Shown one piece after another: positions 767-27,116 of a DNA stretch of 64,000 bases. Origin of the DNA: a virus (lineage: Duplodnaviria > Caudoviricetes); the IMG/VR virus record IMGVR_UViG_3300025250_000043, positions 5,115 through 69,114 of that record; one strand, written 5' to 3'. Position numbers and translations under genes: made by a program. The notes beneath the pieces were generated by a model. The model did not search any database. It was not told the origin of the DNA and worked only from the letters and a program-made list of their open reading frames with translations. The number at the start of each line of letters is the position of its first letter. Position 1 is the stretch's first letter.

Positions 767-784
767 TGACGTTGCTCCAATTCA

Positions 785-812
785 AAAAGAAAGGGACGCC
801 CGAAGGCGTCCC
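785..812 (-). terminator. Intrinsic terminator between sheath and tube
   Basis: Minus strand GGGACGCC-TTCG-GGCGTCCC followed by TTTCTTTTT. Confidence 0.75.
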
Positions 813-838
813 GTGTGAGTTTTTAGACCGGCCTAGAA

Positions 839-2287: not shown

Positions 2288-2306
2288 TGATGTATCTCCA
2301 GAAACG

Positions 2307-2329
2307 AAAAAAGCCGCCAAAGCGGCGGC
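2307..2329 (-). terminator. Terminator-like hairpin in the leader of the sheath gene
   Basis: Minus strand GCCGCC-GCTTT-GGCGGC-TTTTTT ending about 20 nt before the sheath ATG. Confidence 0.55.
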
Positions 2330-2389
2330 GAAAGACTTGTCGGCGGTCTTTTGGGAACTGCATTAAGCGCTACCATAAGCCCGCCGCCT

Positions 2390-2407
2390 TGACAAGTTAA
2401 TTTGTCA
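2390..2407. promoter_or_regulatory. 18-bp palindromic operator
   Basis: TGACAA-GTTAAT-TTGTCA. Confidence 0.75.
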
Positions 2408-2423
2408 AAGCACAACGCGAAAG

Positions 2424-2452
2424 TTGACTAAGCTCCAGACCGTGCCTAATTC
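2424..2452 (+). promoter_or_regulatory. Sigma70-type promoter of the SGNH moron
   Basis: TTGACT-N17-TAATTC upstream of ORF 2517. Confidence 0.55.
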
Positions 2453-2516
2453 AGATTTTTTGCCGATCGATATTTAAGTCGCCCTGCATTAGAGGGCACA
2501 CTCGGGGGGATATCCA

Positions 2517-3248: not shown

Positions 3249-3249
3249 G

Positions 3250-3690
3250 TTATCCGGGCCAGCCCTCGTTTATATCCACCGCTTCGAGGGCTTGCGTATC
3301 CGTGGCCGCCAGGATCGCCTCCGACAATGTCCTGGCGCGGCTGAAGCAGCCTTGCACATGTCGCCCGACCGCGATGCCGATAGCCTTCATGGTCACGGCA
3401 TCCAGCGTTACCCAAACGCCCGGTTGAGCTTCCCAATCAATGCTTACCAATTCGGGGTCATTTTCGAAAAGGGAAACCGCGCCGGTAATCTTAGCCTGGC
3501 TATTCGCATCCGTCCGGACCGAAGCGCCTCCGACGAGGATGCCGCCGGTTTCCACAGTCCATCGTTTATCGGCGAGCGCTGCGAGCTTAAGCTCGCGAAG
3601 CGTTTCGAACGGCACCACAATTACCGGCGGCTCATATTCATGTATCGTCGTCTCGCCGGTTGCGATGTTATATTCTTCTCGAATAGCCAT
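3250..3690 (-). CDS. Tail fibre-associated protein (DUF4376-like)
   Basis: KRWTVETGGILVGGASVRTDANSQAKITGA...WEAQPGVWVTLD; follows tail fibre. Confidence 0.8.
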   Translation of the reverse strand: MAIREEYNIATGETTIHEYEPPVIVVPFETLRELKLAALADKRWTVETGGILVGGASVRTDANSQAKITGAVSLFENDPELVSIDWEAQPGVWVTLDAVTMKAIGIAVGRHVQGCFSRARTLSEAILAATDTQALEAVDINEGWPG

Positions 3691-3695
3691 TGATG

Positions 3696-5120: not shown

Positions 5121-5196
5121 GACCGATCCCCGCAAGGCAAAAGAAAACCGCGCCAGCGTTGCCACTGGCGCGGTCGATGATGTCGTTTCGTGTGGT

Positions 5197-8100: not shown

Positions 8101-8454
8101 CACGTAGGTTTCGGATACGCGCACGCCGATATGAACGGCTCCCGTCATCGGGACGGAAGCCAGCACGGCGGCAGGGGCGCTAAGGACGCGGCCATTGATG
8201 TACAGAAGGCCGGCGGTAAGGGTGACGGTATGAGCGTCGGCGTCGATGATGATGTCGCCGCCCTCGATCCGATCGCCGTCGCGAGCGACCATATTGCCGA
8301 TCGCGCGGATTTTGTTCTGGAGGATCGATTGAGCCTCGACCATTTCGGCGGCCTGGCCCAAGTGACCCTCGCGGGTCAGCACGCTATCCCAAAGCGGAAA
8401 TTGGGGCGTGCGGTCGTAAGCCCCGGAGAGGCCCGATTTATGCTCGTAAGTCAT
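5197..8454 (-). CDS. Large baseplate/tail structural protein (DUF4815-like)
   Basis: 1085 aa, QAAEMVEAQSILQ, KNGVFVDPF, DPLAQTF; between gpI and tail fibre. Confidence 0.8.
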   Translation of the reverse strand: MTYEHKSGLSGAYDRTPQFPLWDSVLTREGHLGQAAEMVEAQSILQNKIRAIGNMVARDGDRIEGGDIIIDADAHTVTLTAGLLYINGRVLSAPAAVLASVPMTGAVHIGVRVSETYVTELEEPALLGLHPGSEAEGEKGAARVVLSLAWGFSGDGVEGNLYSVYLLKDGVAIDQTPPPSLTGVNALLALYDNDANGNYIVNGCVVSAIGKDGTDQVFSISEGVANIKGWKRTRYAALRHRELETFDLYRIPVEVQTFGANPTTITLNHGPIATIRQVLVEKEVTDTITRGGTVNGTDALLNTGVTAILEVKQGGTTYVAGTSYNKAGDLISWGPAGAEPASGSSYTVKYRYLGVVIPSAVTNTSITVAGGVTGGQIQVDYDFKLPRVDVIGLDSDGLAVYLKGVSSRTNALPPKVPADVLPLALIENVWTGTPNVTNIGVRAYTMDKIDRMYNSLVNALDLIALERLQRDIDSREPVSKNGVFVDPFTSDRYRDAGEPQTAAVFGGLLRLAIDPTFHSANLPGVTLLNWTEEVAVEQPLATSCMKINPYQNFTPIPASMTVNPPVDYWTENATQWASDSAAALSSPVVVTTSSSTTGRTTTTTTTTKKETVESSTSEEALAYLRQISLEFTIKGFGVGENLTKLEFDGINVTPPGLSGDADGEIVGSFVIPANVPAGSKGLVATGAGGSSAAAIFVGQGKIDIETLRRVITTTVQQTSVTAPRETTPRPGGVSGGGGGGNGGSRSDPLAQTFTLTEGRHIAGVNLKVCLIGDPDNPLIIELVEVANGIPTVNVIAQAYYNMNAAVIGQWTQVRFPYPVWLAGGVEYAFVVKTNDGDHSIATAKLGDFDIVTQQPVAAQPYSVGVMLSSSNAVTWTPHQAEDICFQLIAAKFAPTTKTVNVGTFAVNSMSDLLLRAEVELPTAAASMHFEVELDDGSITLLNPGQAWELQAFYTGNVKIRAVLSGSAKVSPVVFPVILAIEGKLKTTGTYVSRAFDMGTAIKLLSYLKTKIPTGATIAMDVDPANDVWTPVPQIVQTPLQEAGWVERKYSITGFNANPVGRIRITLTGTPAARPMAYDFRAISTP

Positions 8455-8461
8455 GATTGCC

Positions 8462-9586
8462 TCAAACGATCTTCAAGAGGACGCGAAAGCGTTCGCGTGA
8501 TGTTTTGCCTAGAAGAGCCGGCGTGATGTCGAAGCCGCCGACGACAGCGCCGCCGGCAATGCCAGCGCCCGCAATCCATTGGATGCCAGCGGGTTGGGGT
8601 CCGACCGGCGAGCCGCCGAGCGTGACGCTCCAAGAGTGCATGGTTTCGCCCTCGCCCTCGCCGAAATCCATGAGAGCTTCGGCATAGATAGTCGAACCGG
8701 CTTGGCTGGCGACGACATAGTCCAACCCGTCGGCGTGATAGTATCCGCCGAACAGCAATTCGACGGGGCGATAGACACGCGCCTTGCGGAAGCCAATCGG
8801 CGTTCCGTCGGCCCGATAGGTGCCAATCCAGCATGATTTCGCGAGCAAAGCTGTCGCAATGACCTTCGCGCGCGTTGTGGCGGCGTCAGACATCCATTGC
8901 AGACCAGGCGTCGACCAGGGAACCGGCCCCCATGAGATCGAGCCGCCGCCGGCCGGCGGAGGAACCCACGCATTCAGGGCAACCAATTCCGCTTGCGTCA
9001 AATCGTGGCCAGCGTCGAAGGTGCGGCCGAAAGACCACTTCACCCCGCCGTCGTGTAGGCGAACGCCTGAAGCGTCGCCCCAAATGCCGTTGCCCCATCG
9101 GGAATAGGACCAATCGTGTTCCCGAACGTTGTAGCCCTTCCATGCCCGGTAGAATTCCGAGCGAACCGGGTCTGACAGCCTCACCACCGCCTCGATCGTG
9201 CCGAGATCGGTTTCGTTGTCGCGGAAGCGGTCCAGTTCCAATTCGTAAAAGTGCCAGCGCGTGCGGCGGAGCGGAGCCTCGTAAAGCGTCGAGAAGGCAT
9301 AGCCGACCCAAGTCAAGCTTTCTGCGATACCTTGTGGCGTTCCCTTCACCCGTTGCCAGCGCAAGCCATATTCGATCGTCGTCGCGAGATCGGGCAGATA
9401 TTGCGAGATCGTGCCGAGGCCGTATTCGACGACAAGCCAAGGCAGGATCGAGGGCTGGACCGTTTCGTATTTGAACGAATGCAGTTCGGCCGGACCTGGC
9501 GCGAGTTCGGGGAAGCGGTCGAGCGATTCCGACAGCGCTTCCTCGAATGGCGTTGAGTTCGGCGGGAGAAGGTGCTTCCTGTCCAT
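8462..9586 (-). CDS. Tail protein I (P2 gpI-like baseplate wedge)
   Basis: MDRKHLLPPNSTPFE...LPWLVVEYGL...RWQRVKGT; TAATG overlap with gpJ. Confidence 0.88.
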   Translation of the reverse strand: MDRKHLLPPNSTPFEEALSESLDRFPELAPGPAELHSFKYETVQPSILPWLVVEYGLGTISQYLPDLATTIEYGLRWQRVKGTPQGIAESLTWVGYAFSTLYEAPLRRTRWHFYELELDRFRDNETDLGTIEAVVRLSDPVRSEFYRAWKGYNVREHDWSYSRWGNGIWGDASGVRLHDGGVKWSFGRTFDAGHDLTQAELVALNAWVPPPAGGGSISWGPVPWSTPGLQWMSDAATTRAKVIATALLAKSCWIGTYRADGTPIGFRKARVYRPVELLFGGYYHADGLDYVVASQAGSTIYAEALMDFGEGEGETMHSWSVTLGGSPVGPQPAGIQWIAGAGIAGGAVVGGFDITPALLGKTSRERFRVLLKIV

Positions 9587-10446
9587 TACCGATCGCGCCC
9601 TTTGAACGTGAGCATCACGTTTCCGATCTTCACCGCGGAATGGTCGTCGACCACTATGTCGTCGACCGGCGAGGCGATGGAAACCTTTTGAACGCCCGGT
9701 TGATGCAGCTTTGCGGCCAGCCAAGACCGCGTGACGTTGAAGCCGAGGCCGCCTTCAGCCGCGAGCGCGGCGCGCAAGGTCGCCTCCAGATTGTCGAAGA
9801 CCGTGATTGGCGCGCCAGGCAGAAGCCAGACATCGGCGATGACGTTGGCCGTGGCGCTGGTCGCCGAAACGACCGTGACCCGATCGGAGATAACCCGAAC
9901 GCTGTTTTTCTGAACCTCCGCATTTACCGCTGCGAGCAAGGCCGCGTCGGGCTCGCCGAAGTTGTCGGTCGCCAGGACAGCGATGCGGAGGTCGGGGCCA
10001 CTCCCTACGCGATAGATCGACACGTCTTTGACCCGAATGTCGGCGCGTAGCGCGGCCGAGCGATACCAGTCGGCCCCGCCCGCCGGAGAACGGCCGGCGA
10101 TCGCGATGATTACCCGTTTGCGGAGGGCGTCGTCACTCTCGCCGGACAGCCGGCGCACGTCATAGAACGCGGCCAGGTGATCGAGATCGGTTCCGCCGGA
10201 GAAGGCGACAAGGTTCGCCTTGGCGGCATCGTTCACGCGCGCGCGGAGAAAGACCTCGCGGTAAGCGGCGACCTCCAGCACGATCTTGACCGGGTCTGTT
10301 TCCAGGCCGCCCACGTCGTAAGCGATGCCGGCGGCGGCGAAGCGTGCATTGGCGTCCGTCATGAGCGACGCAAGGATCGCCTCATAGTCGATTTCTTCGA
10401 TGATCGCCGGCTTTCCGAGCAGGGCAATTTCGGCTTGCGTGATCAT
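9586..10446 (-). CDS. Baseplate assembly protein J
   Basis: IIEEIDYEAIL...SGGTDLDHLAAFYDVRRL...AGRSPAGG. Confidence 0.93.
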   Translation of the reverse strand: MITQAEIALLGKPAIIEEIDYEAILASLMTDANARFAAAGIAYDVGGLETDPVKIVLEVAAYREVFLRARVNDAAKANLVAFSGGTDLDHLAAFYDVRRLSGESDDALRKRVIIAIAGRSPAGGADWYRSAALRADIRVKDVSIYRVGSGPDLRIAVLATDNFGEPDAALLAAVNAEVQKNSVRVISDRVTVVSATSATANVIADVWLLPGAPITVFDNLEATLRAALAAEGGLGFNVTRSWLAAKLHQPGVQKVSIASPVDDIVVDDHSAVKIGNVMLTFKGRDR

Positions 10447-10458
10447 GATAGGACCGCC

Positions 10459-10824
10459 TTACAATGTGATTTCAGCGAGCCGCGCGGAGGCTTCCGAGAA
10501 GTCGCCCAGGTGCCCGCGCGGATAGTAGGTTCCGGTGAGGCGGAAGATGATGCCGCCGTCCGCTCCGGCCTTCTCGACGTTGACAGTCTCCAGCCGGTAG
10601 CGCGGTTCCCATTTCGCGATGGCGTCCGCACACGCGGAGAAGACCGCGAGCAAGACACGGTCATTCATCGGCGCATCGATCAGGGCCATAATTCTCGAGC
10701 CGAAGTCGCGACGCATTACGCGCGTGCCGACCATCGTCGTGAGAACGACCTCGATCGATTGCTTGACGTGCTCCCATCCCGTCAAGATGCCGCCCCCATG
10801 GCGGTCGACGCCAAGGCTACTCAT
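10459..10824 (-). CDS. Baseplate wedge protein W (gp25-like)
   Basis: HVKQSIEVVLTTMVGTRVMRRDFGS...AIAKWEPR. Confidence 0.93.
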   Translation of the reverse strand: MSSLGVDRHGGGILTGWEHVKQSIEVVLTTMVGTRVMRRDFGSRIMALIDAPMNDRVLLAVFSACADAIAKWEPRYRLETVNVEKAGADGGIIFRLTGTYYPRGHLGDFSEASARLAEITL

Positions 10825-11002
10825 CGGCCGCCGCCTCGCGCTGCCGACGCCTGGCGGGCTTCTTTACCTCGACCAGCGTCAGCCGGTCGCCGTAGGGCGC
10901 GGCAAGGTATTTCGCCTCGCGCTCGCTCATGTCGATTTCCTCGCCAGCAACGCGCCAGTTCATGTTGAGGAAGCCGGTGTGATTGACCTTATAGCTAGGC
11001 AT
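10817..11002 (-). CDS. Small hypothetical protein
   Basis: MPSYKVNHTGFLNMNWRVAGEEIDMSEREAKYL; GGAG RBS; overlaps gpW start. Confidence 0.65.
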   Translation of the reverse strand: MPSYKVNHTGFLNMNWRVAGEEIDMSEREAKYLAAPYGDRLTLVEVKKPARRRQREAAADE

Positions 11003-11012
11003 GTGAGCTCCC

Positions 11013-11573
11013 TTAGACTGGAACGTTTGTCGTCGCCCCGCCGGGCTCGACGCCGCTGTGAATGTGCGTGTCGCCGACTTCCTTGGCATTGTGCTTCAGG
11101 CTGGCGCCCTCGACATGCAGCTTGCTTTTCATCGTGGTTTGTGTGGCCGCGATGTCGAAGTCTGTGCATGTGATTGTGAGCTTGCCGCCCGAGACGGAGA
11201 CGCGAACGCCGCCGTTGTCGATCAGCACGAATTCATCGCCGGCCTTTGACGGCCGGGGATTTTTGTTAGAAGGGATCGATTGCTCAATCACCCCGTCGGC
11301 CAGGTCGCCCGTCTCACTGGAGATCGTGACTTGCTGGCCGATCGAGGGCGGGAAATGCGTCTTGCCGAGGCCGGCCGCTTGCTCCGCCCACGGAACCCAC
11401 GGTGAGAGGAAAGGCTTGCCGCCATAACCTTTCGCCATGAGCTCGACCCGCGCCAGACCCTTCGCCGGATCGACTTGCGCGATCTTGCCCGTCCTTTTGG
11501 AGGCACGATCGCGCCGTTCCAGATCCTTTATGCGATTGGCGAGGCCGAGGATGATGTCTTCCATCGTCGTCAT
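11013..11573 (-). CDS. Baseplate spike protein V
   Basis: GKIAQVDPAKGLARV...PWVPWAEQAAG...PPSIGQQV; C-terminal HIHSGVEPGG. Confidence 0.92.
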   Translation of the reverse strand: MTTMEDIILGLANRIKDLERRDRASKRTGKIAQVDPAKGLARVELMAKGYGGKPFLSPWVPWAEQAAGLGKTHFPPSIGQQVTISSETGDLADGVIEQSIPSNKNPRPSKAGDEFVLIDNGGVRVSVSGGKLTITCTDFDIAATQTTMKSKLHVEGASLKHNAKEVGDTHIHSGVEPGGATTNVPV

Positions 11574-11585
11574 TCGCCTTGCCTT

Positions 11586-12113
11586 TCATAGCCCATCTAC
11601 CGTAGGCGCGGCCGGCTGATAGCCGCCGTTCTGAACGTCAGGGGACGGCGGCGGGACATAGCTCGCGGTGCCGAGTATGATTGCTTGCTCCCAACCGACG
11701 CCCCACACAGAGAGGCCGCGTGCCAGCGTCTTTTCGGAGTTGTAATTGAGGATCGAGATTTGATCGGGGTCCGTCCTTGCGGTCGGCCCCTCTTCCGCAT
11801 GGAAGCGGTTCTCATGGATGACCACGACCAGGCTTTCCGCGATTTCGGCGGCCGTTGTGTCGACGCCCTTGCCGCGATCTTCAGCGATCACCGCCACGGC
11901 GACCGCGACGGCAAGCTTCAGGCGGCCGTCGGAAAGCTTCGTGGCGATGCCGTTGCCAGTGACGGAGACGAGGGCGCCGGGCGTTTTGATCCCGATGCGG
12001 CCCTTCTCGCCCTCGTCGAATTCGTTCGCATACTTGCGGACTTCCTTCAGGGCCGGGACGCGGGTCTTGATCTCTTCGACGATCGCATCCCAAAACGTGA
12101 CGATATTGCTCAT
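11586..12113 (-). CDS. Tail completion/terminator protein (Mu gp37-like)
   Basis: MSNIVTFWDAIVEEIKTRVPALKEV...LSVWGVGWEQ; position after morphogenesis gene. Confidence 0.65.
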   Translation of the reverse strand: MSNIVTFWDAIVEEIKTRVPALKEVRKYANEFDEGEKGRIGIKTPGALVSVTGNGIATKLSDGRLKLAVAVAVAVIAEDRGKGVDTTAAEIAESLVVVIHENRFHAEEGPTARTDPDQISILNYNSEKTLARGLSVWGVGWEQAIILGTASYVPPPSPDVQNGGYQPAAPTVDGL

Positions 12114-12538
12114 CCGACCACCGCCTTCAGGAAATTGACAAGCGTCGTCTCGATCTCGGCGAGGTTCGCTTGCGACGCGCCGAGCCAGGGACGGGCGACC
12201 ATCTTCGTTGTGCCGAATTGGTGATACTTGCCATAGGGCACGCCAGAGCCGACCGTGACGCTGTCGCCGGCAACGAAGTTGGCGATCGAGCCCATGAGGC
12301 GGCCGGTGCGGACAAGCAAGCCGCGACCCTTCTGCGACTTGCCTCGCGCATAGGAGCCCGACCAGGGAGCCCAAGGCACGCCATCGGGCGAAACCTTCTC
12401 GCCGAACCGGCGCTTGGTCTGGCGCTCCGCGATGCCGCCCACAGCGCGCAGCAGGCGGTTCCGGAAGGAAGCTTGCGCAAGCGCGTTCATGACCTTGTCG
12501 GCATCCGACGTGTCGAAGGAAATGACGACTTCAGGCAC
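12110..12538 (-). CDS. Virion morphogenesis protein (Mu gpG/P2 gpS-like)
   Basis: SPDGVPWAPWS...LLVRTGRLMGSI...YHQFGT..MVARPWLG. Confidence 0.9.
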   Translation of the reverse strand: MPEVVISFDTSDADKVMNALAQASFRNRLLRAVGGIAERQTKRRFGEKVSPDGVPWAPWSGSYARGKSQKGRGLLVRTGRLMGSIANFVAGDSVTVGSGVPYGKYHQFGTTKMVARPWLGASQANLAEIETTLVNFLKAVVG

Positions 12539-12942
12539 TAGCCGCGCTCCCAGGTATAGAAGCCAGTCGCGAAGTCGGGGCCGGTCTGCTCTTCCTGCTC
12601 GACCGGGACGCCGATCGTCGCCTTGCCGGCCGCGATCTTCGTCAAGAGCGACACCGCGTCTTCATAGCGCGTGCGATGCTCGTCGGTGCGCGGCCCCGCC
12701 TTCAGGGCGAGCCGGTAAAGCGCGATGTCGACGCAAAGCCGCTTCAGGACGGGCGTCGCGGCGGAGATCGGCAGCGGATATTTCGCGCCGACGTAGCTGT
12801 CAATTTCAGCCGAGGCATTCGCTAGACCTTCGGCGACGCCGGTTTCATCAAGCTGGCCGGGATTGTCTTCGTCTTCAGCGACGCGCAAGAGCTCGTCGGC
12901 TCCGTAGAGCTTGGCGATGTCTTCCTTCGTGGCGTAGGGCAT
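12538..12942 (-). CDS. Head-tail connector (Mu gp36/DUF1320-like)
   Basis: MPYATKEDIAKLYG...ASAEIDSYVGAKYPLP...DIALYRL...RYEDAVSLL. Confidence 0.9.
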   Translation of the reverse strand: MPYATKEDIAKLYGADELLRVAEDEDNPGQLDETGVAEGLANASAEIDSYVGAKYPLPISAATPVLKRLCVDIALYRLALKAGPRTDEHRTRYEDAVSLLTKIAAGKATIGVPVEQEEQTGPDFATGFYTWERG

Positions 12943-12960
12943 GGCATCACCTTTGGAAAT

Positions 12961-13037
12961 TGGTTGCGGGAGCGGGATTTGAACCCGCGCGCTCCGGAGC
13001 ATGAACCCGGCGGGCTACCAGACTGCCCCATCCCGCG
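12961..13037 (-). tRNA. tRNA-Met(CAT), initiator (fMet) type, with variant anticodon arm
   Basis: CGCGGGA TG GGGC AGTCTGGTA GCCC G CCGGG TTCATGC TCCGG AGCGC GCGGG TTCAAAT CCCGC TCCCGCA A CCA; 77 nt, C1:A72 mismatch, encoded CCA. Confidence 0.92.
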
Positions 13038-13051
13038 TTGAAGGCCCTCGA

Positions 13052-13483
13052 TCAGAGGGCCAGGTAACAGACCTCTCCGCCGGTCCAGGCGTCGCACTCG
13101 ATCGCGACCTCGATCGCGCGTCGCGCGTCAGCGCCCATGACCATTGCGGCGTAGGCGTAAGCCTCGCCGGAGCCTGTTGAGTAGAAGTCGGCCCGCAAAG
13201 GGCCGGTGAAACATGGTCCGCCGTTGTAATACCAGACAGAGCCGTCCGGCTTGACCAGCAACGCCTTGACATCAAACGTCTCGGCGAAGTCTTGCTCGAC
13301 GCCGACCGCTTCAACGGCGCGGCGGAAGCTATCGGGGAGCCCGACGGTGCTCGACGACACGCCGAGAAGCGAGCCATCCTCCAAGCGACGAAGCTTTGAC
13401 TTCGTCCCTGTCGGATGCTTGTCGCCCGCATAGGCGCGGCTGTCGGCCGCCATGACGCCCGCGCGATACGCGATTGTCGTCAT
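13052..13483 (-). CDS. Proteasome-beta/HslV-like Ntn-hydrolase (threonine peptidase fold)
   Basis: N-terminus M-TTIAY..GVMAADSR..., Lys near position 28-30, internal TGSG..YA motif. Confidence 0.7.
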   Translation of the reverse strand: MTTIAYRAGVMAADSRAYAGDKHPTGTKSKLRRLEDGSLLGVSSSTVGLPDSFRRAVEAVGVEQDFAETFDVKALLVKPDGSVWYYNGGPCFTGPLRADFYSTGSGEAYAYAAMVMGADARRAIEVAIECDAWTGGEVCYLAL

Positions 13484-13492
13484 GGCCTATTT

Positions 13493-13819
13493 TCAGGCCA
13501 CCTTAGCGATTTCGGCCTGAAGGATCGGAAGGATTTCTTCCTTCGTCTTGGCCTCGCCGAGCTCGATCTTGAATTCGGCCGCGACAGCCTTCAGTTCGGC
13601 GGCGCTCATGGCCGCGAAGTCCGGCGGTTCGGCCGACTTCTGTTCTTTCGGCTCTTTCGAAGCCTTCGGTTCCTTGCCGGCCTTCGGTTCCTTCGGCTCT
13701 TTCGGTTCCTTGGTGGGAGCCTTGGCCTCATAGCCGTTGCCGGTAGCCTTTTCGTGGCCCTTGGAGCCGACTTCGACGAGGATTTCGGCCTGGCCGTTGG
13801 TGAGTGTGATCAGCTTCAT
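13493..13819 (-). CDS. Head-associated protein with KEP repeats and C-terminal HeH/Rho-N-like helix pair
   Basis: KEPKEPKEPKAGKEPK linker; DFAAMSAAELKAVAAEFKIELGEAKTKEEIL. Confidence 0.65.
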   Translation of the reverse strand: MKLITLTNGQAEILVEVGSKGHEKATGNGYEAKAPTKEPKEPKEPKAGKEPKASKEPKEQKSAEPPDFAAMSAAELKAVAAEFKIELGEAKTKEEILPILQAEIAKVA

Positions 13820-13837
13820 TTTGCTCTCTCCGGGTGC

Positions 13838-13868
13838 AAAAAAAGAAAGGGCGAGGTTTCCCTCGCCC
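13838..13868 (-). terminator. Intrinsic terminator after major capsid gene
   Basis: Minus strand GGGCGAGG-GAAA-CCTCGCCC-TTTCTTTTTTT. Confidence 0.8.
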
Positions 13869-13885
13869 CTTCCTATCGGTTGATG

Positions 13886-15031
13886 TTAGCCGTGATGTCG
13901 GACGGCCAGGGCGTCACGGATTTTCTTGGTGCCGAACAGGATGTCGAAGCGCCAGATGCGGCTCGACTTGCCCGGATCGCGCCAGGTTTCCAGACGGAGC
14001 GGGATGCCCGTGACCGGATCGGTCGCAACCGAAATGGTCGAGCTCTCGCTCTCTTCGTCCGCCAGCGTGCGGGCCGCCCACATGAAGGCGTTCTTCTGGA
14101 ACGCCAGGTTCACGGTGTAGGGCAGACCGGCGGTGCCTTCGAAGGTAACGGCCGCGTTGTCGGCGGCGGCGCCCTTCAGGGCCGGCAGGAACTTCACCTG
14201 TGCGAACGCGCCAGCAACGGCCGCGACGTTCTCGGTCACGACATACTGGCCCTCGACGTTCGCGACGGTGAACACGTCACCGACAACCAGGGTCCGCGTG
14301 CCAGTCGAGCCGTCGATCGCCATCGACGTTGCACCGGCAGCAGCAGCGCCGTTCACGGCCAGGCTGTCATCGACGGCCGTACCGGGAGTGTGCTTCGGAA
14401 CCATCTGGTCCGAATAGTTGTCGAAGCCGTAAATGCGGCCGAGGGAAGCCTCGCGAAGGGCGGCGGTCGAGCCGGTCTTGTCGAAGCCCTTCATGCCCTT
14501 CAGGAAGTTCTTCTCGGCCTTGCTGTCGAACACCGCGCGGCGTTCGGCGGTGCCCGCAAGCTGAAGGTTCAGCGCCTCGCGGCTGTCGAGAAGAGCGTCT
14601 TCGTTCGCGGGAGTGGTGTTAGCCCCGCCGACGAAGTTCGGGACGGTCTTATACAGCGCGAACAGGTTGCGGTTGACGGAATTCGCCAGCGCCTTCACCG
14701 CGCTCTCGGCGGCCGAGGGCAGAATGCCGCCGGTCAGGCTCTCGCGCATTTCCTTGTCGGACATGCCGAAAGCCTTGTACTTCCACTGGTCGAGCACGAT
14801 GTCGACCGTACCGGAACCGAGATCGGTCTTCGTGGTGCCGGTGTTCGGGTCGAAGTCGTCGGCCTCACCCAAATCCTGCGGCAGCGGGACCGAGATCGTG
14901 GCGGCCTTCTTGGCGGCTTCCGCCGAGTAATCAGACGCGACCAGGGCCGGCATGACGCAAGCCTCGCGCAGCACCGGGAGGGCCGCCGGGAGGATCAGGT
15001 CGTCCATGAGTTTCTTGAGATCGTTTGCCAT
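13886..15031 (-). CDS. Major capsid protein (P22 coat/gp5-like family)
   Basis: 382 aa, ATISVPLP, LREASLGRIYGFD, WRFDILFGTKKIR; follows scaffold. Confidence 0.88.
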   Translation of the reverse strand: MANDLKKLMDDLILPAALPVLREACVMPALVASDYSAEAAKKAATISVPLPQDLGEADDFDPNTGTTKTDLGSGTVDIVLDQWKYKAFGMSDKEMRESLTGGILPSAAESAVKALANSVNRNLFALYKTVPNFVGGANTTPANEDALLDSREALNLQLAGTAERRAVFDSKAEKNFLKGMKGFDKTGSTAALREASLGRIYGFDNYSDQMVPKHTPGTAVDDSLAVNGAAAAGATSMAIDGSTGTRTLVVGDVFTVANVEGQYVVTENVAAVAGAFAQVKFLPALKGAAADNAAVTFEGTAGLPYTVNLAFQKNAFMWAARTLADEESESSTISVATDPVTGIPLRLETWRDPGKSSRIWRFDILFGTKKIRDALAVRHHG

Positions 15032-15087
15032 TTCCATTCCTTCAAAGTTTGGACAAGCCGGCCCTCAAATGCGAAAGTCGCCGGGAG

Positions 15088-15918
15088 TTACCCGACGACT
15101 TCGATCTGGCCCGACATGTAATCGGAGGTCAGTTTCCGCTTGGTCGCCTCATCGGCGGCACCGAGCTTTGCAGTCCATTCAGCGCGGGTGTACTTGCCCG
15201 CCGCCCCGCCGCCGTTCTTGTTGTCCGGCGGCACGCCGCCGCCGCCCTTCGCCTGGCTTTCAAAGGCCACGGCAAAGCGCTTGTCGGCACGCATTTCGAC
15301 GACAAGGTCATCCACCGACATCATTTCGCCCTTGGCGTTCTTGATGCGGGGATTTCCGTTCGCGTCGATGACCTCGACTCCGAATTTGCCATCCTTCTCA
15401 GTCAGGCGAAGACGGTCGGTCACGACACGCTGAAGCAATTCCGGGTTGCCCTTGTGCGCGGAGAGCGCGGTCAGGGCGGCGTTGTCGACCAACACGCGAC
15501 GAATTTCGCCGGTCAGGGCGCCCTCGCGTTCGGTCCACTTTTTCTTGTCGGTTTCGACTTCGGCGAGGATTTGCGCCTTGATCGCGTCGACCTTCTCGCT
15601 CGCGATACGGTCGGCCTCGACAGCAGGGTCGAGATTGCCGATCTTCGCCAGCTTGGCGATCGCTTCCTTGGCGGCCTTGGCGTCCAGACCTTCGAAGCCC
15701 TTCAGCTTGCCGTTGGTCTGCTTGTGCGCCTCGCGCTCACCGGAGAGCGCCGACTTCAGGCTCTCGACATTGTCGAGCGCAAAGCCGTGACTGCCTTCCA
15801 CATCCAGGCGGAACTTGCCGGCCAGGTCGCCAGAGTCGTCGCCCTCGATCTTCGTGTAAAATCCTCGCGCCGTTTCGGGGACAGCCGAAACGTCGTCAAT
15901 AATTGCCTTCAGTGCCAT
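15088..15918 (-). CDS. Capsid scaffolding protein
   Basis: MALKAII...FRLDVEG...LKSALSGERE; coiled coil; C-terminal GGG motif; precedes capsid. Confidence 0.8.
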   Translation of the reverse strand: MALKAIIDDVSAVPETARGFYTKIEGDDSGDLAGKFRLDVEGSHGFALDNVESLKSALSGEREAHKQTNGKLKGFEGLDAKAAKEAIAKLAKIGNLDPAVEADRIASEKVDAIKAQILAEVETDKKKWTEREGALTGEIRRVLVDNAALTALSAHKGNPELLQRVVTDRLRLTEKDGKFGVEVIDANGNPRIKNAKGEMMSVDDLVVEMRADKRFAVAFESQAKGGGGVPPDNKNGGGAAGKYTRAEWTAKLGAADEATKRKLTSDYMSGQIEVVG

Positions 15919-16115
15919 CTTGTTCTTCCGGGGTTGCGAGGCATCCCGCCTCTAAGGATCGCTTGGCATCCCGCCGCGCTTCTGCAAAAGCCGGTCGTTC
16001 GATCAGGCGAGCGTCACGCTGGCCCAAAACGAAAAAGGCCCGACCGCGTGCGATCGAGCCTTTGAACGGATTTTGTCCCTTGCATTAAAGGCATATATGA
16101 GCCGGCCAGGCTCGT

Positions 16116-16133
16116 CAACAATTTATTTTGTCA
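16116..16133. promoter_or_regulatory. 18-bp palindromic operator upstream of scaffold/capsid block
   Basis: CAACAA-TTTATT-TTGTCA. Confidence 0.7.
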
Positions 16134-16404
16134 AAGGACAATCTTTAATGTGGAAATGCGGCTTCTCGCAACGCCGGCAACACCAGAACATCGCGCCGCC
16201 GACGAGCTCGCCGTCGATGACGTGGCCGCCAATTCGGACCTCGATCAGGGAGCCGTAAGGGTAGCCGACCGCGACCGAACACGGCACGCATTCGAACTTT
16301 TCAATGACGATGTCTTTGGAGCCTTGCCGAATGACCCGCGCCTTTGGCTTGGCGCTGGAGCCTCCGCCCTCAATCAAACGAAGGCGTCTAGGGTTCTCTG
16401 GCAA
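16123..16404 (-). CDS. Small zinc-finger-like protein
   Basis: TTG start with GGAGG RBS; CVPC...CRRC pairs. Confidence 0.55.
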   Translation of the reverse strand: MPENPRRLRLIEGGGSSAKPKARVIRQGSKDIVIEKFECVPCSVAVGYPYGSLIEVRIGGHVIDGELVGGAMFWCCRRCEKPHFHIKDCPLTK

Positions 16405-16561
16405 ATGCGACCTCCAGAAAAGGAAATGGGCAGACCCGAAAGCCTGCCCACGTTTCCTACCACAGAAACGGCCAGCGCTCCGGTTTGGGCCTTCGTGCTG
16501 ACTTGGCGAACCTACGCCGCGCCCTACCCGAATTCAACCGTAAATCGCCCGGTTTGCAACT

Positions 16562-16627
16562 TGACAAAAAAATTTGTTGAAGCGCCACCGCGACAAGTTT
16601 ATATGTCAGCCCTCACCTACCACGGAG
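16562..16627 (+). promoter_or_regulatory. Promoter of ADP-ribosylglycohydrolase: two 18-bp operators, -35/-10, CCTACCAC, SD
   Basis: TGACAA-AAAAAT-TTGTTG (16562), CGACAA-GTTTAT-ATGTCA (16591), TTGAAG-N17-TATATG, CCTACCAC-GGAG (16616). Confidence 0.7.
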
Positions 16628-16636
16628 AAGCGACAC

Positions 16637-17542
16637 ATGATGAACGTACAACAGGCCGTCGGCAGCTTTATCGGGCTCGCGGTCGGCGATGCTCTCGGCG
16701 CAACACTCGAATTCGGCCCGCGCCTGCATCACAACCCGCACACCGAAATGATCGGCAAAGGTCCGTTTGGCCTAAAACCAGGCCAGTACACCGACGATAC
16801 CGCGATGGCTATCGCGCTCTCCCACGGCATCCTCAATTCCGGCAAGGTCTTCAACCCGTTTGAAGCCGCGATGGAATTCGCAAGCTGGTATGCTCGCGGC
16901 AAATACTCGTCGAATGGGCGATGCTTCGACATCGGCAACCAGACGCGCAAGGCGCTCGATCGCTTCATCGACACTAAGACGGCAATCGCCTCTGAAGACG
17001 AAGAGGCGCGAGGCAACGGCGCGATGATGCGGCTTGCTCCCGTCCCGATCGCCTATTGGCAGTCGCCGGAGACGGCGGCCCATGTCGCGGACCTTCAGGC
17101 GCGCATCACCCACAATAGCCAATACAACGCCGCCGCGTGCCGCTGGCTTGCGTATCGCCTGGCGAAGCAATTCTCGTCGTCGCGAAGCCTTTTCCATGAG
17201 ATCGACGGCGACGGCGAGGAATTGCTCGCCGGCAACATGGAGCTCATTGCCTGCGTCCGCGAGCGGTGGAAGGTGCTACCGCCCTCGTCGGTGATCTCGG
17301 ATGGCCATGTAATGCACACTCTTGGCGCGGCGCTTTGGTCAGTCCAGAACACAAGCACCTTTGAGGCGGCCGTCGTGACGGCTGTAAACCTGGGCGGGGA
17401 CGCCGACACCGTCGGCGCGGTCACTGGCATGATTGCCGGCGCGGTCTATGGCGTGGACGCCATCCCCGAGCGCTGGAGCCGGGTTCTCGTTCACCGCGAC
17501 CCGATCAAGAGCCTGGCGCAACGGCTCACGCAACTGAATTGA
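16637..17542 (+). CDS. ADP-ribosylglycohydrolase (ARH/DraG family)
   Basis: GLAVGDALGATLEF, YTDDTAM, GNGAMMRLAP, THN, GGDADTVGAVTGMIAG all present. Confidence 0.95.
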   Translation: MMNVQQAVGSFIGLAVGDALGATLEFGPRLHHNPHTEMIGKGPFGLKPGQYTDDTAMAIALSHGILNSGKVFNPFEAAMEFASWYARGKYSSNGRCFDIGNQTRKALDRFIDTKTAIASEDEEARGNGAMMRLAPVPIAYWQSPETAAHVADLQARITHNSQYNAAACRWLAYRLAKQFSSSRSLFHEIDGDGEELLAGNMELIACVRERWKVLPPSSVISDGHVMHTLGAALWSVQNTSTFEAAVVTAVNLGGDADTVGAVTGMIAGAVYGVDAIPERWSRVLVHRDPIKSLAQRLTQLN

Positions 17543-17547
17543 CGAAG

Positions 17548-17573
17548 AGGCCGGTTTCAACCGGCCTTTTTTT
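17548..17573 (+). terminator. Intrinsic terminator after ARH, overlapping stop of convergent ORF
   Basis: AGGCCGGT-TTCA-ACCGGCCT-TTTTTT. Confidence 0.8.
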
Positions 17574-17766
17574 CTTCCTCGTCGAGCTCCGCCAGGCGCT
17601 TCACCGCCGCCGCGACGGCCTCCGGATCATCGTTCGCCTCTATGATGTCCTCACAGATGAACCGTTCATTGGCCCGCTTTTTCGCGAGCTTGGCCTTGAC
17701 CGCCTCGTCGGTATTCAGGACTTCGTAGGGGCCGCCGAACTTGTCGGCGTTGATGGGCGTCTTCAT
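17557..17766 (-). CDS. Small acidic protein coupled to MuF-ART (candidate immunity/partner)
   Basis: 69 aa; ATG overlaps MuF-ART stop (ATGA). Confidence 0.7.
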   Translation of the reverse strand: MKTPINADKFGGPYEVLNTDEAVKAKLAKKRANERFICEDIIEANDDPEAVAAAVKRLAELDEEEKKAG

Positions 17767-20216
17767 TCGGTCACTTCCTCGACTTCTAGGACGATCACGC
17801 GGTTCCCCGAATAGGTTCCGACCTTTTCCTTGTAATAGGTCGTTTCATCGCGCACGCCCACTACGCGGTATTGCGTGCCGCGCGTGATGATCTCTTGCTC
17901 ATAGTCGGTTCCGCGCAGCATCGGCGTCCCCTTCTTGAACACGGCTTCCATAACGAAGGCTGTGTCGCCCTGGCCCGGAATGTTGATGGCGGAGCCGTTC
18001 GCAAAGTTCGACGCCGCCCTCTCCCGAACCGAGAATGACATATAGCCGTCATCCGAAACAACCAGGCCCTTGAGATCGTCGACCTTGAAGTCGGCCGGAA
18101 CGCGGGTCGAGCCGAATTGCTCTTTGAGCGTGTGGCGAATGTCGAAGCCGCGAAACCCCTGCATATCGACCGGCGCTTGGTTCTTCATGAGGGCGCGGTC
18201 CATCCTGGCGATCTTGTCCGCCGTCGCGCCGCCGAGCTCTTTGATCTTTCGGCGGTCGCCCTTGTGCTCGCGGAGCATGGCGTTGATGGCGCGATAGGTC
18301 GAGCCCTTGTACTGGTCGATCGCAGTCGCCTCCGGCGCGGTCACGTCGTTGTAGTGCTGGCCGGCCCATGAGAAGTATTCGTGGTCGGCTGTCTTGAGCT
18401 TGTAGAAGGTATGGCCGTTCGCGCCCTGTCCGATCTCGTGCTTGATCGACATGATCTCTTGATCGGAGAGCTGGATTTTCTTCCCGGCCTTTTTCGCGGC
18501 GGCCAGGGCGGCTTTGATCTTCGCCGCTTCCTCTGCGGCGGCCAGTTGTTCGGCGGCGGCCTTGGCGGATGCCGCCTTGGCTTCCTCGATCGCCTTCGTG
18601 GCGTCGATGTATTGGAACTTGACCGTCGGCTCTTTCAGGGCTTCGGCGGCCTTGATAACCGCCTTGCCCTCGATCAGGTGGAATTTGCCGTCGACCTTCG
18701 CGCCGTAGACTGGTTTGGTCGGATCAAAATTCTGAATGATCGCCTTGACCGTGTCGGCCTGCACCGTACCGCCGTAGACGATCTCGATATCGCCGAGAGC
18801 AACGTCGGCAACCTGGCCGCTGGCCTTGGCGGTTTGCGCGTTCGCTCCGGCGTACATTTTGGCGTAGCCGCTCGCGGCCGGCGACGATGACGGCTGCTTG
18901 AAGTTAAGGGCGCCCTGCTCCGCCTCCGCGTCGATCCGCGCCAGGCCGGCGTTTACCTTGGCTTCCGCCGCTTCCTTCGCGGCCTTGGCCTCGTTTTCGA
19001 GGGCGAGCAATTTGGCGGCTTCAGCTTCGGCGGCTTTCTTCGCCGCGATAGCCTCCGCGCTCTCCGCAATCTTGACCTTCGCGGCGGCCTTGGTCTTCGC
19101 CAGGGTCTTCGCCGCCTCCGGCTGGATTGGGGCCGGCGGCGAGTTGCGCTTCACCGCGCCAGGATCTAGGGCGGCTTGCTTTGCGGTCTTGTCGCCGAAC
19201 GCGCGCTTCCATGCGGCGGCGTCGTTCGCCTTTAGTTGGTCGAGCGTGAGCGGCCGGCCGCTGTCGGCGACGAATTTGTCGAGAGCGATTCGGCCGTCCT
19301 TCCAAAGCTTTTGCTTTGCCGGGCCGAGCACTTCCTTTTGAACCGCGTCCGGCTGGTCGGCCAGCCATTTCGCGTAGTCGTTCACCGCCTCGACTTCCTG
19401 GCCGATGACGATCGGGGCGATTGTCGACCGACAGTTGACGTGTGCCGGCGGGATCGGGTTCGTCGAGTTCGGGGAATTCTGGTAGACCGCGCCGGCCCTC
19501 GATCGGCAAACCGGCGTCGTGCGCGCGTCGAGAACCGAAATCCACTGGTAGCGATCGAACACGTCCGCGTTGTCGTCGAGGAAAGTCTTGTGGGCGGCGT
19601 TTGAGACGTGGTTGACGGCCGTCCGCACCAAAGCCTCGACGCCGCGTTGCGTGCCGCGCAGAACACCGTCCCCATAGTTGAGGGCTCGAGTTCCGCGAAT
19701 GCGCCGGACGATCTCCGGAATGCCCTCGCCTTCCATGACGCCCATCAGCACGGCGTCGTGGACCTTTTGCTTGATCTGGTCGGGATACTGGAGAAGCCAA
19801 TCCTTGATGTAGCGGCCCTGAAGCGGGCGCGTGGTAACGATGGCTTTCAAAAGCTGCGGAGCCGGCGTCACAAAGTTGGTCGCGAAAGGCAGGGACGCCG
19901 AATAGGTGTTGGCCGCCCACTGGGCTTCATGCACCGCGAGGTCGCCGAGCTCCGTCTCGACGGTCGAGTTGACGACGGCCATCGCCTCGACGGCGGTGGC
20001 CCGAACCTGGGCGAGCAAGTTCGCAAGATGCTGTTGCGTGGCGTTGTTCGGGCCGGCCGTGGTCGCGCCGACGCTTGGCATGGCCGAGAGCTTGGCGACG
20101 ATGTCGGCCTCGACCTTGTTCAGCTTGTTCAGGATTTTTTTGTTGAGGGCTACGCCGTAGCGCTCCAGCCCTATGCGGTGTTGAACGAGTAGGTCGTGGG
20201 CAACCGCGTTCGGCAT
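17763..20216 (-). CDS. Head morphogenesis protein (SPP1 gp7/MuF) fused to C-terminal ADP-ribosyltransferase (VIP2/Alt-like)
   Basis: N-terminal MuF motifs YQWISVLDARTTPVCRSRAG, PPAHVNCRS; C-terminal YKGSTYRAINAMLR, FRG, YMSFS, EQE. Confidence 0.9.
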   Translation of the reverse strand: MPNAVAHDLLVQHRIGLERYGVALNKKILNKLNKVEADIVAKLSAMPSVGATTAGPNNATQQHLANLLAQVRATAVEAMAVVNSTVETELGDLAVHEAQWAANTYSASLPFATNFVTPAPQLLKAIVTTRPLQGRYIKDWLLQYPDQIKQKVHDAVLMGVMEGEGIPEIVRRIRGTRALNYGDGVLRGTQRGVEALVRTAVNHVSNAAHKTFLDDNADVFDRYQWISVLDARTTPVCRSRAGAVYQNSPNSTNPIPPAHVNCRSTIAPIVIGQEVEAVNDYAKWLADQPDAVQKEVLGPAKQKLWKDGRIALDKFVADSGRPLTLDQLKANDAAAWKRAFGDKTAKQAALDPGAVKRNSPPAPIQPEAAKTLAKTKAAAKVKIAESAEAIAAKKAAEAEAAKLLALENEAKAAKEAAEAKVNAGLARIDAEAEQGALNFKQPSSSPAASGYAKMYAGANAQTAKASGQVADVALGDIEIVYGGTVQADTVKAIIQNFDPTKPVYGAKVDGKFHLIEGKAVIKAAEALKEPTVKFQYIDATKAIEEAKAASAKAAAEQLAAAEEAAKIKAALAAAKKAGKKIQLSDQEIMSIKHEIGQGANGHTFYKLKTADHEYFSWAGQHYNDVTAPEATAIDQYKGSTYRAINAMLREHKGDRRKIKELGGATADKIARMDRALMKNQAPVDMQGFRGFDIRHTLKEQFGSTRVPADFKVDDLKGLVVSDDGYMSFSVRERAASNFANGSAINIPGQGDTAFVMEAVFKKGTPMLRGTDYEQEIITRGTQYRVVGVRDETTYYKEKVGTYSGNRVIVLEVEEVTE

Positions 20217-26940: not shown

Positions 26941-27116
26941 CCACGGTCGAGCCCGATCACTACGCCGACGCCGATCTCGCGACCAAGATCATCCTGTCCG
27001 AATTGGAGCGAGATATCGCGGCGCAACTCGACATCGAATTCCGCCGGCCGGCCAGGCGTCCCCGCACCGGCCAGCGCCGGCCGATCAAGCGGCGGCCTGA
27101 CAACAAAAGTTGTTGA
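26937..27116 (+). CDS. Hypothetical small protein
   Basis: ATGA coupling to previous gene; MTTVEPDHYADAD. Confidence 0.5.
   Translation: MTTVEPDHYADADLATKIILSELERDIAAQLDIEFRRPARRPRTGQRRPIKRRPDNKSC

What the first reader, a model, noticed from the sequence alone, without database searches (positions are those of the whole stretch)
16562..20216. MuF-ADP-ribosyltransferase, small partner and convergent ADP-ribosylglycohydrolase: candidate virion-delivered writer/eraser module
Seen: an 817-aa head morphogenesis protein whose C-terminal ~200 aa has the R-S-ExE ART signature (FRG, YMSFS, EQE; YRAINAMLR helix); a translationally coupled 69-aa acidic ORF; then a complete ARH/DraG hydrolase on the opposite strand with its own operator-bound promoter and CCTACCAC leader, sharing a terminator. 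Established: MuF proteins carry polymorphic toxin domains with downstream immunity genes; ExE-type ARTs (VIP2, T4 Alt/Mod) modify arginine; ARH enzymes reverse Arg-ADP-ribosylation (DraG, Tri1). Inference: the ART is packaged and injected to modify a host target, while the independently timed eraser resets it or protects the producing cell. Two separate protection layers, with the eraser under early control, is unusual.
Basis: partly seen in the sequence, partly recalled or inferred. Interest (0 to 1): 0.87.

Follow-up and report, generated by a model that had tools for sequence, protein, structure and literature searches.

The report
Prophage MuF-ART toxin with two antidotes
A Mesorhizobium-type prophage carries a head protein fused to an ADP-ribosylating enzyme, with a small partner gene and an ADP-ribose-removing enzyme beside it; the genes are real and linked, but the same three-part design was already shown experimentally in a Bacteroides prophage, so this is a new example and not a new kind.

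Summary
At 17763-20216(-) an 817-aa protein joins a MuF/SPP1-gp7 head domain to a C-terminal ADPrib_exo_Tox domain. That domain has intact R689, S727 and E773-x-E775, and a confident model matches C2-I, CDTa, VIP2 and C3. A 69-aa ORF is ATGA-coupled to it. A complete DraG/Tri1-type ADP-ribosylarginine hydrolase (16637-17542,+) converges on them.

Comparison with relatives adds most. Against an 80%-identical MuF in another Mesorhizobium prophage, the block 16569-19194 is swapped. That block holds the MuF middle region, ART, 69-aa ORF, ARH and ARH promoter. The relative has an unrelated C-terminal domain, an unrelated small ORF and no ARH. A third relative has a very divergent ART (24% identity), an unrelated small ORF and a retained ARH.

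This fits a polymorphic MuF toxin cassette with a toxin-specific small partner and a generic enzymatic eraser. Five more distant MuF-ARTs lack ARH, and 49 of 50 ARH-bearing viral records lack this ART type.

The claim that two protection layers are unusual is not supported. Bxa-Bsi-BAH (JBC 2024) and Apk2-Tis1-Aph1 are characterised precedents. The shared terminator is strong only for the ARH strand. "Early" timing of ARH is inferred from a shared leader motif.

Verdict: new member of a known kind, moderate interest.

The parts
17763..20216 (-). MuF-ART gene (817 aa): MuF head domain, middle region, C-terminal ADP-ribosyltransferase
   Evidence: Pfam and PHROG hits. NCBIfam phageSPP1_gp7 domain 4e-14. 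GC3 0.81.
19419..19769 (-). Phage_Mu_F domain (residues 150-266)
   Evidence: PF04233 8e-11, above the curated cut-off.
17766..18449 (-). ART domain (residues 590-817) with R689, S727, E773-Q-E775
   Evidence: PF03496 5e-17. Invariant columns. AF2 model with mean pLDDT 87.6. Foldseek best matches are C2-I, CDTa, Certhrax, VIP2 and C3, E 3e-10 to 1e-8.
17557..17766 (-). 69-aa ORF, ATGA-coupled to MuF-ART; candidate ART-specific binding immunity protein
   Evidence: Sequence. GC3 0.80. Homologues only next to the same ART type. No Pfam, PHROG or NCBIfam hit. The Atlas model is a helical hairpin of low confidence.
17544..17573 (+). GC-rich hairpin plus T7 run. It is the intrinsic terminator of the ARH transcript, and the stop codon of the 69-aa ORF lies in its loop.
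   Evidence: z -3.95 on +. On the minus strand the following tract is U-poor.
16637..17542 (+). ADP-ribosylarginine hydrolase of the DraG/Tri1 type (301 aa), convergent with MuF-ART
   Evidence: PF03747 3e-61. PDB 6dre_A (Tri1) 2e-56 and DraG 3.5e-39. NCBIfam Tri1 model 1.8e-72 over profile positions 67-357 only. E25, D53, D54, T55, D98, D255, D257 and T258 are invariant in relatives.
16561..16636 (+). ARH upstream region: operator-like element, -10-like TATAT, CCTACCAC-GGAG leader
   Evidence: Conserved upstream of ARH in L001, L005 and L007.
16569..19194 (.). Variable cassette relative to the ART-less Mesorhizobium relative L006
   Evidence: blastn homology stops at 19195 and resumes at 16568. 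L006 carries an unrelated C-terminal domain and a 55-aa ORF there, and no ARH.

Best explanation
This is a polymorphic MuF toxin/effector cassette of a temperate myovirus-like prophage, from a Mesorhizobium-type host.

Shown here:
- The MuF head domain carries a catalytically intact, ExE-type (predicted arginine-specific) ADP-ribosyltransferase as C-terminal cargo.
- The cassette also holds a translationally coupled small ORF that changes whenever the cargo domain changes.
- It also holds a DraG/Tri1-type ADP-ribosylarginine hydrolase, which is kept across two very different ART domains and is missing when the cargo is not an ART.
- The hydrolase has its own conserved promoter and leader.

Inferred mechanism:
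- The 69-aa protein is made one-for-one with the ART and blocks it by binding during assembly.
- The ARH removes any ADP-ribose put on cell proteins. It works as a generic enzymatic immunity protein or eraser, and is probably made before the late genes.
- The MuF domain brings a few copies of the ART into the capsid for delivery with the DNA.

Together the small binder and the hydrolase would do as two proteins what Tri1 does as one. This matches the Bxa-Bsi-BAH system of Bacteroides.
For: - Domains and motifs.
- Fold.
- ARH type and intact metal and catalytic residues.
- ARH lacks the Tri1 N-terminal extension. The alignment starts at Tri1 residue 69 and at profile position 67.
- Cassette boundaries enclose the ART, the small ORF, the ARH and the ARH promoter.
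- L006, with 80% MuF identity, has an unrelated C-terminus, an unrelated 55-aa ORF and no ARH.
- L007 has an ART only 24% identical, an unrelated 86-aa coupled ORF, and an ARH 51% identical.
- The same trio occurs in L001, L002 and L005.
- A small coupled ORF follows MuF in all ten other loci examined.
- The ARH promoter and leader are conserved.
- Experimental precedent for this logic: PMC11699363. For Tri1: PMC8120803.
- MuF/gp7 is a portal-bound capsid protein: PMC5576092.
Against: - No biochemical or expression data exist, and no RNA run holds this DNA.
- The binder role of the 69-aa protein rests only on position, coupling and co-variation with the ART type. It has no detectable similarity to any known immunity family.
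- The five ARH-bearing loci are one phage clade, so they are not independent.
- Five more distant MuF-ARTs have no ARH within 4-6 kb.
- Of the 50 viral records with the closest ARHs, 49 lack a PF03496 ART. ARH is therefore neither required by MuF-ARTs nor dedicated to them.
- Only 6 kb on each side of the L006 MuF gene was seen.
Confidence: 0.7

Rival explanations
1. Reversible host take-over. The packaged ART is injected, as T4 Alt is, to reprogramme a host target. The main job of the ARH is to erase that mark in the newly infected cell, for example when lysogeny is chosen. Protecting the producing cell is not its main job.
For: - The ARH has its own promoter on the opposite strand.
- Its leader is nearly identical to leaders in the + strand replication block.
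- That promoter and leader are conserved in relatives.
- The phage is temperate, with an integrase at 61374-62600.
- Head-packaged ARTs are widely proposed (PMC9503650).
Against: - Timing is only inferred from a shared motif.
- The same operator-like element also sits on the minus strand before the scaffold gene, so it does not mark early genes only.
- In the one tested system the ARH acts as immunity for the producer (PMC11699363).
- The two roles do not exclude each other.
Confidence: 0.2
2. The ARH is an independent moron or counter-defence gene. It would remove ADP-ribose added by host defence ARTs, or process ADP-ribose signals. On this reading it sits next to the MuF-ART by chance of insertion.
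For: - Of the 50 viral records with the closest ARHs, 49 have no PF03496 ART.
- ARH homologues occur in jumbo phages with no obvious ART partner.
- The ARH is antisense to the late operon, like a moron.
Against: - Within the clade ARH presence follows ART presence exactly: 5 of 5 with an ART against 0 of 1 without.
- The ARH and its promoter lie inside the swapped cassette.
- The closest characterised relative is an anti-ART immunity protein.
Confidence: 0.07
3. The ART works outside the phage cycle. It would be released at lysis and act on competing bacteria or on the eukaryotic (plant) partner of the host, as Bxa acts on epithelial cells. The antidotes would then serve only to protect the producer.
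For: - Bxa precedent (PMC11699363).
- All DNA holders of this stretch are root or soil metagenome runs (which may include the source sample).
- The fold is closest to actin- and Rho-modifying toxins.
Against: - There is no secretion signal or uptake domain.
- The closest ART relatives are again fused to MuF beside portal genes, which points to the capsid.
- Fold similarity does not show the target.
Confidence: 0.08

Closest known systems
Bxa-Bsi-BAH of the Bacteroides stercoris prophage (Alexei et al., J Biol Chem 2024, PMC11699363)
   Same: - A prophage head-module protein of similar size and layout. Bxa is 869 aa with MuF at 1-322, a middle domain, and ART at 621-869. Here the protein is 817 aa with MuF at about 1-350, a middle region, and ART at about 600-817.
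- An adjacent ARH that acts as enzymatic immunity.
- An adjacent small non-enzymatic ORF that binds and blocks the ART.
- The N-terminal MuF is fused to different toxins in relatives.
   Different: - Different phylum.
- The ART is related only at Pfam-family level.
- The ARH here is the DraG/Tri1 type, while BAH was compared with human ARH1.
- The 69-aa ORF has no demonstrated similarity to Bsi, because no Bxa, Bsi or BAH sequence was available to these tools.
- The ARH here is convergent and has its own conserved promoter.
- Nothing here has been tested at the bench.
Tre1-Tri1 (Serratia proteamaculans T6SS; PDB 6DRE/6DRH; PMC8120803)
   Same: - An R-S-E ART toxin paired with a DraG-like ADP-ribosylarginine hydrolase as immunity.
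- Tri1 is the best PDB and NCBIfam match of this ARH (2e-56; 1.8e-72).
   Different: - Tri1 has an N-terminal extension that plugs the toxin's active site. This ARH lacks it.
- Delivery there is by T6SS, not by a phage head.
- The score is below the Tri1 equivalog cut-off (244 against 490 bits).
MuF polymorphic toxins (Jamet et al. 2017, PMC5576092) and MuF-Alt/VIP2 ART fusions (Iyer et al. 2022, PMC9503650)
   Same: - MuF N-terminus, variable C-terminal toxin, small downstream ORF, temperate phage.
- ARTs of the Alt/VIP2 family fused to MuF and proposed to be head-packaged.
   Different: - Jamet et al. found MuF toxins mainly in Firmicutes. Proteobacterial MuF extensions mostly had no known domain.
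- An ARH partner is not part of the general family description.
MuF-Apk2 with Aph1 hydrolase and Tis1 binder (PMC10083569; described in PMC11699363)
   Same: The same two-layer logic: an enzyme that reverses the toxin's product plus a small binder that blocks the toxin.
   Different: The chemistry differs: (p)ppApp synthesis and hydrolysis, not ADP-ribosylation.
Phage T4 Alt
   Same: A head-packaged R-S-E ART injected with the DNA (established knowledge; PMC9503650).
   Different: T4 is virulent. Alt is not MuF-fused, and no phage eraser is paired with it.

Membership tests
MuF polymorphic toxin family | N-terminal MuF (PF04233 / SPP1 gp7) domain | tested here: met
   PF04233 8e-11. TIGR01641 4e-14. 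PHROG 241 1e-107.
MuF polymorphic toxin family | C-terminal domain is variable among close relatives that share the MuF core | tested here: met
   L006 has 72-80% identity over residues 1-350, then an unrelated C-terminus. L007 has 70% identity in the N-terminus and an ART only 24% identical.
MuF polymorphic toxin family | A small ORF directly downstream that varies with the toxin domain | tested here: met
   The 69-aa ORF is ATGA-coupled. Its homologues occur only with the same ART type, and unrelated small ORFs go with the other C-termini.
MuF polymorphic toxin family | Encoded in the head module of a temperate phage | tested here: met
   Scaffold and major head genes lie downstream, an integrase lies at 61374-62600, and the record is classed as a provirus. 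Portal and terminase are not adjacent here; they lie at 43.8-46.8 kb.
MuF polymorphic toxin family | Toxicity of the C-terminal domain, neutralised by the downstream ORF | not testable with these tools
   Needs expression assays.
R-S-E (C3/VIP2/Alt-like) ADP-ribosyltransferases, PF03496 | Catalytic Arg, Ser-x-Ser and (E/Q)-x-E motifs | tested here: met
   R689, S727-F-S729, E773-Q-E775. S and both E columns are invariant, and R is at least 90% conserved, in 23 sequences.
R-S-E (C3/VIP2/Alt-like) ADP-ribosyltransferases, PF03496 | ART fold | tested here: met
   AF2 mean pLDDT 87.6 and pTM 0.85. Foldseek probability 1.00 to C2-I, CDTa, Certhrax, VIP2 and C3, with target TM up to 0.74.
R-S-E (C3/VIP2/Alt-like) ADP-ribosyltransferases, PF03496 | NAD-dependent transfer to arginine | not testable with these tools
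   Arginine specificity is inferred from the ExE motif (established rule) and from the arginine-type ARH partner.
Tri1-type bifunctional immunity protein | DraG-like ARH domain with E-D-D and metal-binding residues | tested here: met
   Alignment to 6dre_A, 2e-56. E25, D53/D54, D98 and D255/D257 are invariant in relatives.
Tri1-type bifunctional immunity protein | N-terminal extension that occludes the toxin's active site | tested here: not met
   The protein starts 3 residues before the ARH core. The match begins at Tri1 residue 69 and at profile position 67 of 361, and the score is below the equivalog cut-off.
Tri1-type bifunctional immunity protein | Encoded next to its cognate ART toxin | tested here: met
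   It is convergent, 221 bp from the ART gene's stop, and lies inside the same swapped cassette.
Bxa-Bsi-BAH type dual-immunity MuF-ART system | MuF-ART plus an adjacent ARH plus an adjacent small non-enzymatic ORF | tested here: met
   The same gene content occurs in four relatives.
Bxa-Bsi-BAH type dual-immunity MuF-ART system | The small ORF binds the ART, and the ARH reverses its product | not testable with these tools
   No complex modelling or assay was available.
Bxa-Bsi-BAH type dual-immunity MuF-ART system | Sequence homology to Bxa, Bsi and BAH | not tested
   No reference sequences could be fetched.

The most novel reading that the evidence does not exclude
This would be a 'split Tri1'. 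The two immunity functions that Tri1 unites in one protein are here two genes with different evolution and different timing. The binder is swapped together with each ART and is co-translated with it. The hydrolase is kept across ART swaps and is driven by the phage's early-type promoter and leader. A temperate phage could then inject an active ART and afterwards erase the marks, giving a reversible take-over switch tied to the choice between lysis and lysogeny.
Probability: 0.22. Interest if true: 0.65.

Novelty: new member of a known kind. Interest (0 to 1): 0.42.

Why it matters
- It extends the experimentally defined MuF-ART dual-immunity design from gut Bacteroidales to prophages of root-associated alphaproteobacteria.
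- It offers a natural swap series: ART type A, ART type B, and a non-ART cargo, all on near-identical MuF cores. That series separates a toxin-specific partner from a generic eraser.
- This is a convenient system for three questions. Are MuF cargo enzymes really delivered by the virion? Does one ARH protect against several ARTs? Does the eraser serve the producing cell or the newly infected cell?
- It does not open a new category.

Tried and rejected
- phmmer of the ART domain against PDB sequences: no hit at 0.01. Fold search was needed instead.
- tblastn of the ART domain against 50,697 phage records: no match.
- blastn of the region against phages: only a 244-bp match in phiLM21, outside the module.
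- Pattern scans of viral contigs and genome contigs with the ART domain, and of genome contigs with the MuF core: nothing.
L001's genome is not held.
- The 69-aa ORF has no Pfam, PHROG or NCBIfam family. The Atlas gives only a low-confidence helical hairpin.
- The C-terminus of L006's MuF has no Pfam, NCBIfam or PDB hit. A JAB/RadC-like HNHPS motif seen by eye got only weak Atlas leads at 0.80-0.82, so it is not claimed.
- Expression: no RNA holder listed.
- The script machine was lost. No dN/dS, no ARH tree, and no automated ART scan of the last 30 ARH loci could be done.
- I considered and rejected the idea that the hairpin is a symmetric shared terminator.
- I considered and rejected the TTG at 16574 as the ARH start. 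The conserved leader, the Shine-Dalgarno sequence and the L001 start all point to 16637/16640.


Full report
**Context**

The window is most of a 69-kb IMG/VR provirus record. It has the following layout:
- A P2-like tail block and a head block on the minus strand, from 263 to 20216: sheath, fibres, baseplate, major head, scaffold.
- A + strand replication block from about 20.2 to 33 kb.
- Portal and terminase at 43.8-46.8 kb.
- An integrase at 61374-62600.

Its nearest relatives are prophages in Mesorhizobium genomes.

**The three genes**

MuF-ART. The ORF at 17763-20216(-) encodes 817 aa. Pfam finds Phage_Mu_F at residues 150-266 and ADPrib_exo_Tox at 621-793, both above the curated cut-offs. 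PHROGs calls it head morphogenesis at 1e-107.

The ART part is divergent. A search of 1.8 billion cluster representatives gave only 46 hits at E<=0.001, and outside its own clade identity is about 30%. I aligned it with 22 of these hits and relatives.
- N645, S727, E773 and E775 are invariant.
- R689 is nearly invariant.

An AlphaFold2 model from that alignment is confident, with mean pLDDT 87.6 and pTM 0.85. Its best PDB matches are C2-I, CDTa, Certhrax, VIP2 and C3. An ExE loop is the arginine-specific version of this family. That is established knowledge, not something tested here.

69-aa ORF. The ORF at 17557-17766(-) starts in an ATGA overlap with the MuF stop. It has coding-type GC3 of 0.80 and pI 4.8. 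It matches no family library.

ARH. The ARH at 16637-17542(+) covers the whole ADP_ribosyl_GH profile (3e-61).
- Its best solved relative is 6DRE chain A at 2e-56. That chain is Tri1, the ADP-ribosylarginine hydrolase immunity protein of the Tre1 toxin (PMC8120803).
- DraG follows at 3.5e-39.
- NCBIfam agrees: the Tri1 model scores 1.8e-72. The match covers only profile positions 67-357 and is below the equivalog cut-off.
- So this is a Tri1-like core without Tri1's N-terminal plug.
- The acidic and metal-binding residues are invariant in four relatives.
- The record holds exactly one ART and one ARH.

**Comparative evidence**

Four relatives carry the same trio in the same order and orientation:
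- L001, from Mesorhizobium sp. M0152.
- L002, a 1.1-kb metagenome fragment.
- L005, from IMG/VR.
- L007, from ENA.

Two comparisons are the most informative.

L006, from Mesorhizobium sp. Cs1299R1N3.
- Its MuF core is 72-80% identical over the first ~350-400 residues.
- DNA homology to the window stops at 19195 and resumes at 16568.
- In between, the window has the MuF middle region, ART, 69-aa ORF, ARH and the ARH promoter.
- L006 has instead an unrelated C-terminal domain of about 240 aa and an unrelated 55-aa ORF, with no ARH.
- The right junction falls inside the operator-like element.

L007.
- It shares the MuF core and the middle region up to about residue 540.
- Its ART is so different that BLASTP finds nothing.
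- Pfam still calls it an ART at 4e-8. An alignment shows 24% identity with R, S and ExE kept.
- Its coupled small ORF (86 aa) is unrelated to the 69-aa family.
- Its ARH is a clear homologue at 51% identity.

Taken together, the small ORF tracks the particular cargo domain, and the ARH tracks 'ART or not'. This is the pattern expected for a specific binding antidote plus a generic enzymatic one.

**Limits of the co-occurrence**

- The five ARH-bearing loci are one clade.
- Five more distant MuF-ARTs each have a small downstream ORF but no ARH within 4-6 kb. These are L008, L010, L011, L012 and L094, and they include the nearest outside relative of this ART.
- From the other side, 250 viral stretches encode relatives of this ARH. 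Of the 50 best records, only the close relative has a PF03496 ART. Many of these records are fragments, and other ART families were not scanned.
- In isolated phages this ARH type is rare, found in 38 of 50,697 records and mostly in jumbo phages.

**Regulation**

- CCTACCAC occurs 22 times against 0.5 expected, and 19 of the copies are on the + strand. The copy at 16616 directly precedes the GGAG and the start of ARH.
- The ARH leader is almost the same as the one at 30164 in the replication block.
- An operator-like element at 16561-16580 has three relatives in the window. One of them lies on the minus strand before the scaffold gene, so the element is not restricted to the + strand block.
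- Operator and leader are both conserved upstream of ARH in L001 and L005. In L007 they are conserved upstream of a 48-aa ORF that precedes ARH.
- This supports separate, conserved control of ARH. 'Early' remains an inference, and no RNA data exist.
- The hairpin at 17544-17571 plus a T7 run is a proper terminator for ARH only.
- L001 keeps the hairpin.
- L005 and L007 have overlapping convergent stop codons instead.

**What is already known**

- MuF toxins with small downstream immunity ORFs were defined in 2017. [quoted passage not shown]
- MuF fusions to Alt/VIP2-family ARTs, and their likely packaging, were surveyed in 2022 (PMC9503650). That survey also notes that ARH domains are rare in viruses and mentions an ART-ARH pair in Aeromonas phages.
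- Most directly, Bxa of a Bacteroides stercoris prophage is an 869-aa protein built as MuF, middle domain and ART.
  - Its antibacterial activity is reversed by the adjacent hydrolase BAH.
  - It is blocked by the adjacent small binder Bsi.
  - Its orthologues co-occur with both partners.
  - Its MuF domain is fused to other toxins in relatives (PMC11699363).
- The same paper describes the parallel Apk2, Aph1 and Tis1 case.

**Conclusion**

The module reading is supported by cassette-level comparative evidence. Delivery, timing and biochemistry are inferred.

The system is a new, phylogenetically distant member of the MuF-ART dual-immunity kind. Its useful particulars are a Tri1-type hydrolase without the plug, its own conserved promoter, and a natural swap series.

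Noticed in passing
window, 22 sites (e.g. 16456, 16616, 20370, 30164, 47220, 51752, 56854): CCTACCAC occurs 22 times against 0.5 expected, with 19 copies on the + strand. It usually abuts a GGAG Shine-Dalgarno sequence about 9 nt before a start codon. This looks like a phage-wide leader or initial-transcribed motif of unknown function.
   Followed up: partly
window 16115-16134 (-), 16561-16580 (+), 27097-27116 (+), 47148-47167 (+): An operator-like 20-mer family (TGACAA, A/T-rich spacer, TTGTTG). One copy lies on the minus strand just upstream of the scaffold gene and is conserved in L006, so the element is not confined to the + strand 'early' genes.
   Followed up: partly
window 16123-16404 (-): A 93-aa Cys-rich ORF (CxxC ... 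CCxxC-type) between ARH and scaffold. It is conserved at 70-85% identity in L001 and L005 and is also encoded in L006 (an uncalled ORF) and in L007 (a 92-aa ORF at the same position), whatever the cargo type. It has no family hit. Terminator-like hairpins bracket it at 16451-16426 and 16063-16034 on the minus strand, which suggests several termination points inside the late region.
   Followed up: partly
window 18597-18854 (-), MuF-ART residues ~455-540: A conserved middle domain, flanked by Ala/Lys/Glu-rich linkers. The window, L005 and L007 share it, and L006 lacks it. It has no family assignment. It behaves as a separate module between MuF and the cargo, like the 'middle domain' of Bxa.
   Followed up: no
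window 43813-46826 versus 13886-20216: The head module is split. Portal and large terminase lie about 24 kb from MuF, scaffold and major head, with a + strand replication block between them. More distant relatives (L008-L011) keep the usual order of terminase, portal, MuF.
   Followed up: no
L006:7023-7913: The alternative cargo is a C-terminal domain of about 180 aa with an HNHPS...S..D motif. Atlas structural neighbours are domains fused to MuF, minor-capsid-2 and portal proteins. JAB/RadC leads are weak. It is followed by its own 55-aa ORF.
   Followed up: partly
L094:579-7870: A 1140-aa Portal_Mu-Acb1 fusion lies directly upstream of a 1289-aa MuF protein with two ART-like repeats. Both would be head-borne counter-defence or effector cargos in one phage.
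   Followed up: no
L010:4769-7652: A Tad2-like (anti-Thoeris) gene and an SLT lysozyme gene sit immediately upstream of another MuF-ART.
   Followed up: no
L005:8699-8702 and L007:8720-8723: The small ORF and the convergent ARH share overlapping stop codons (CTAG, TTAG) with no intergenic terminator. The window and L001 differ: there the stop codon of the small ORF lies in a hairpin loop.
   Followed up: yes
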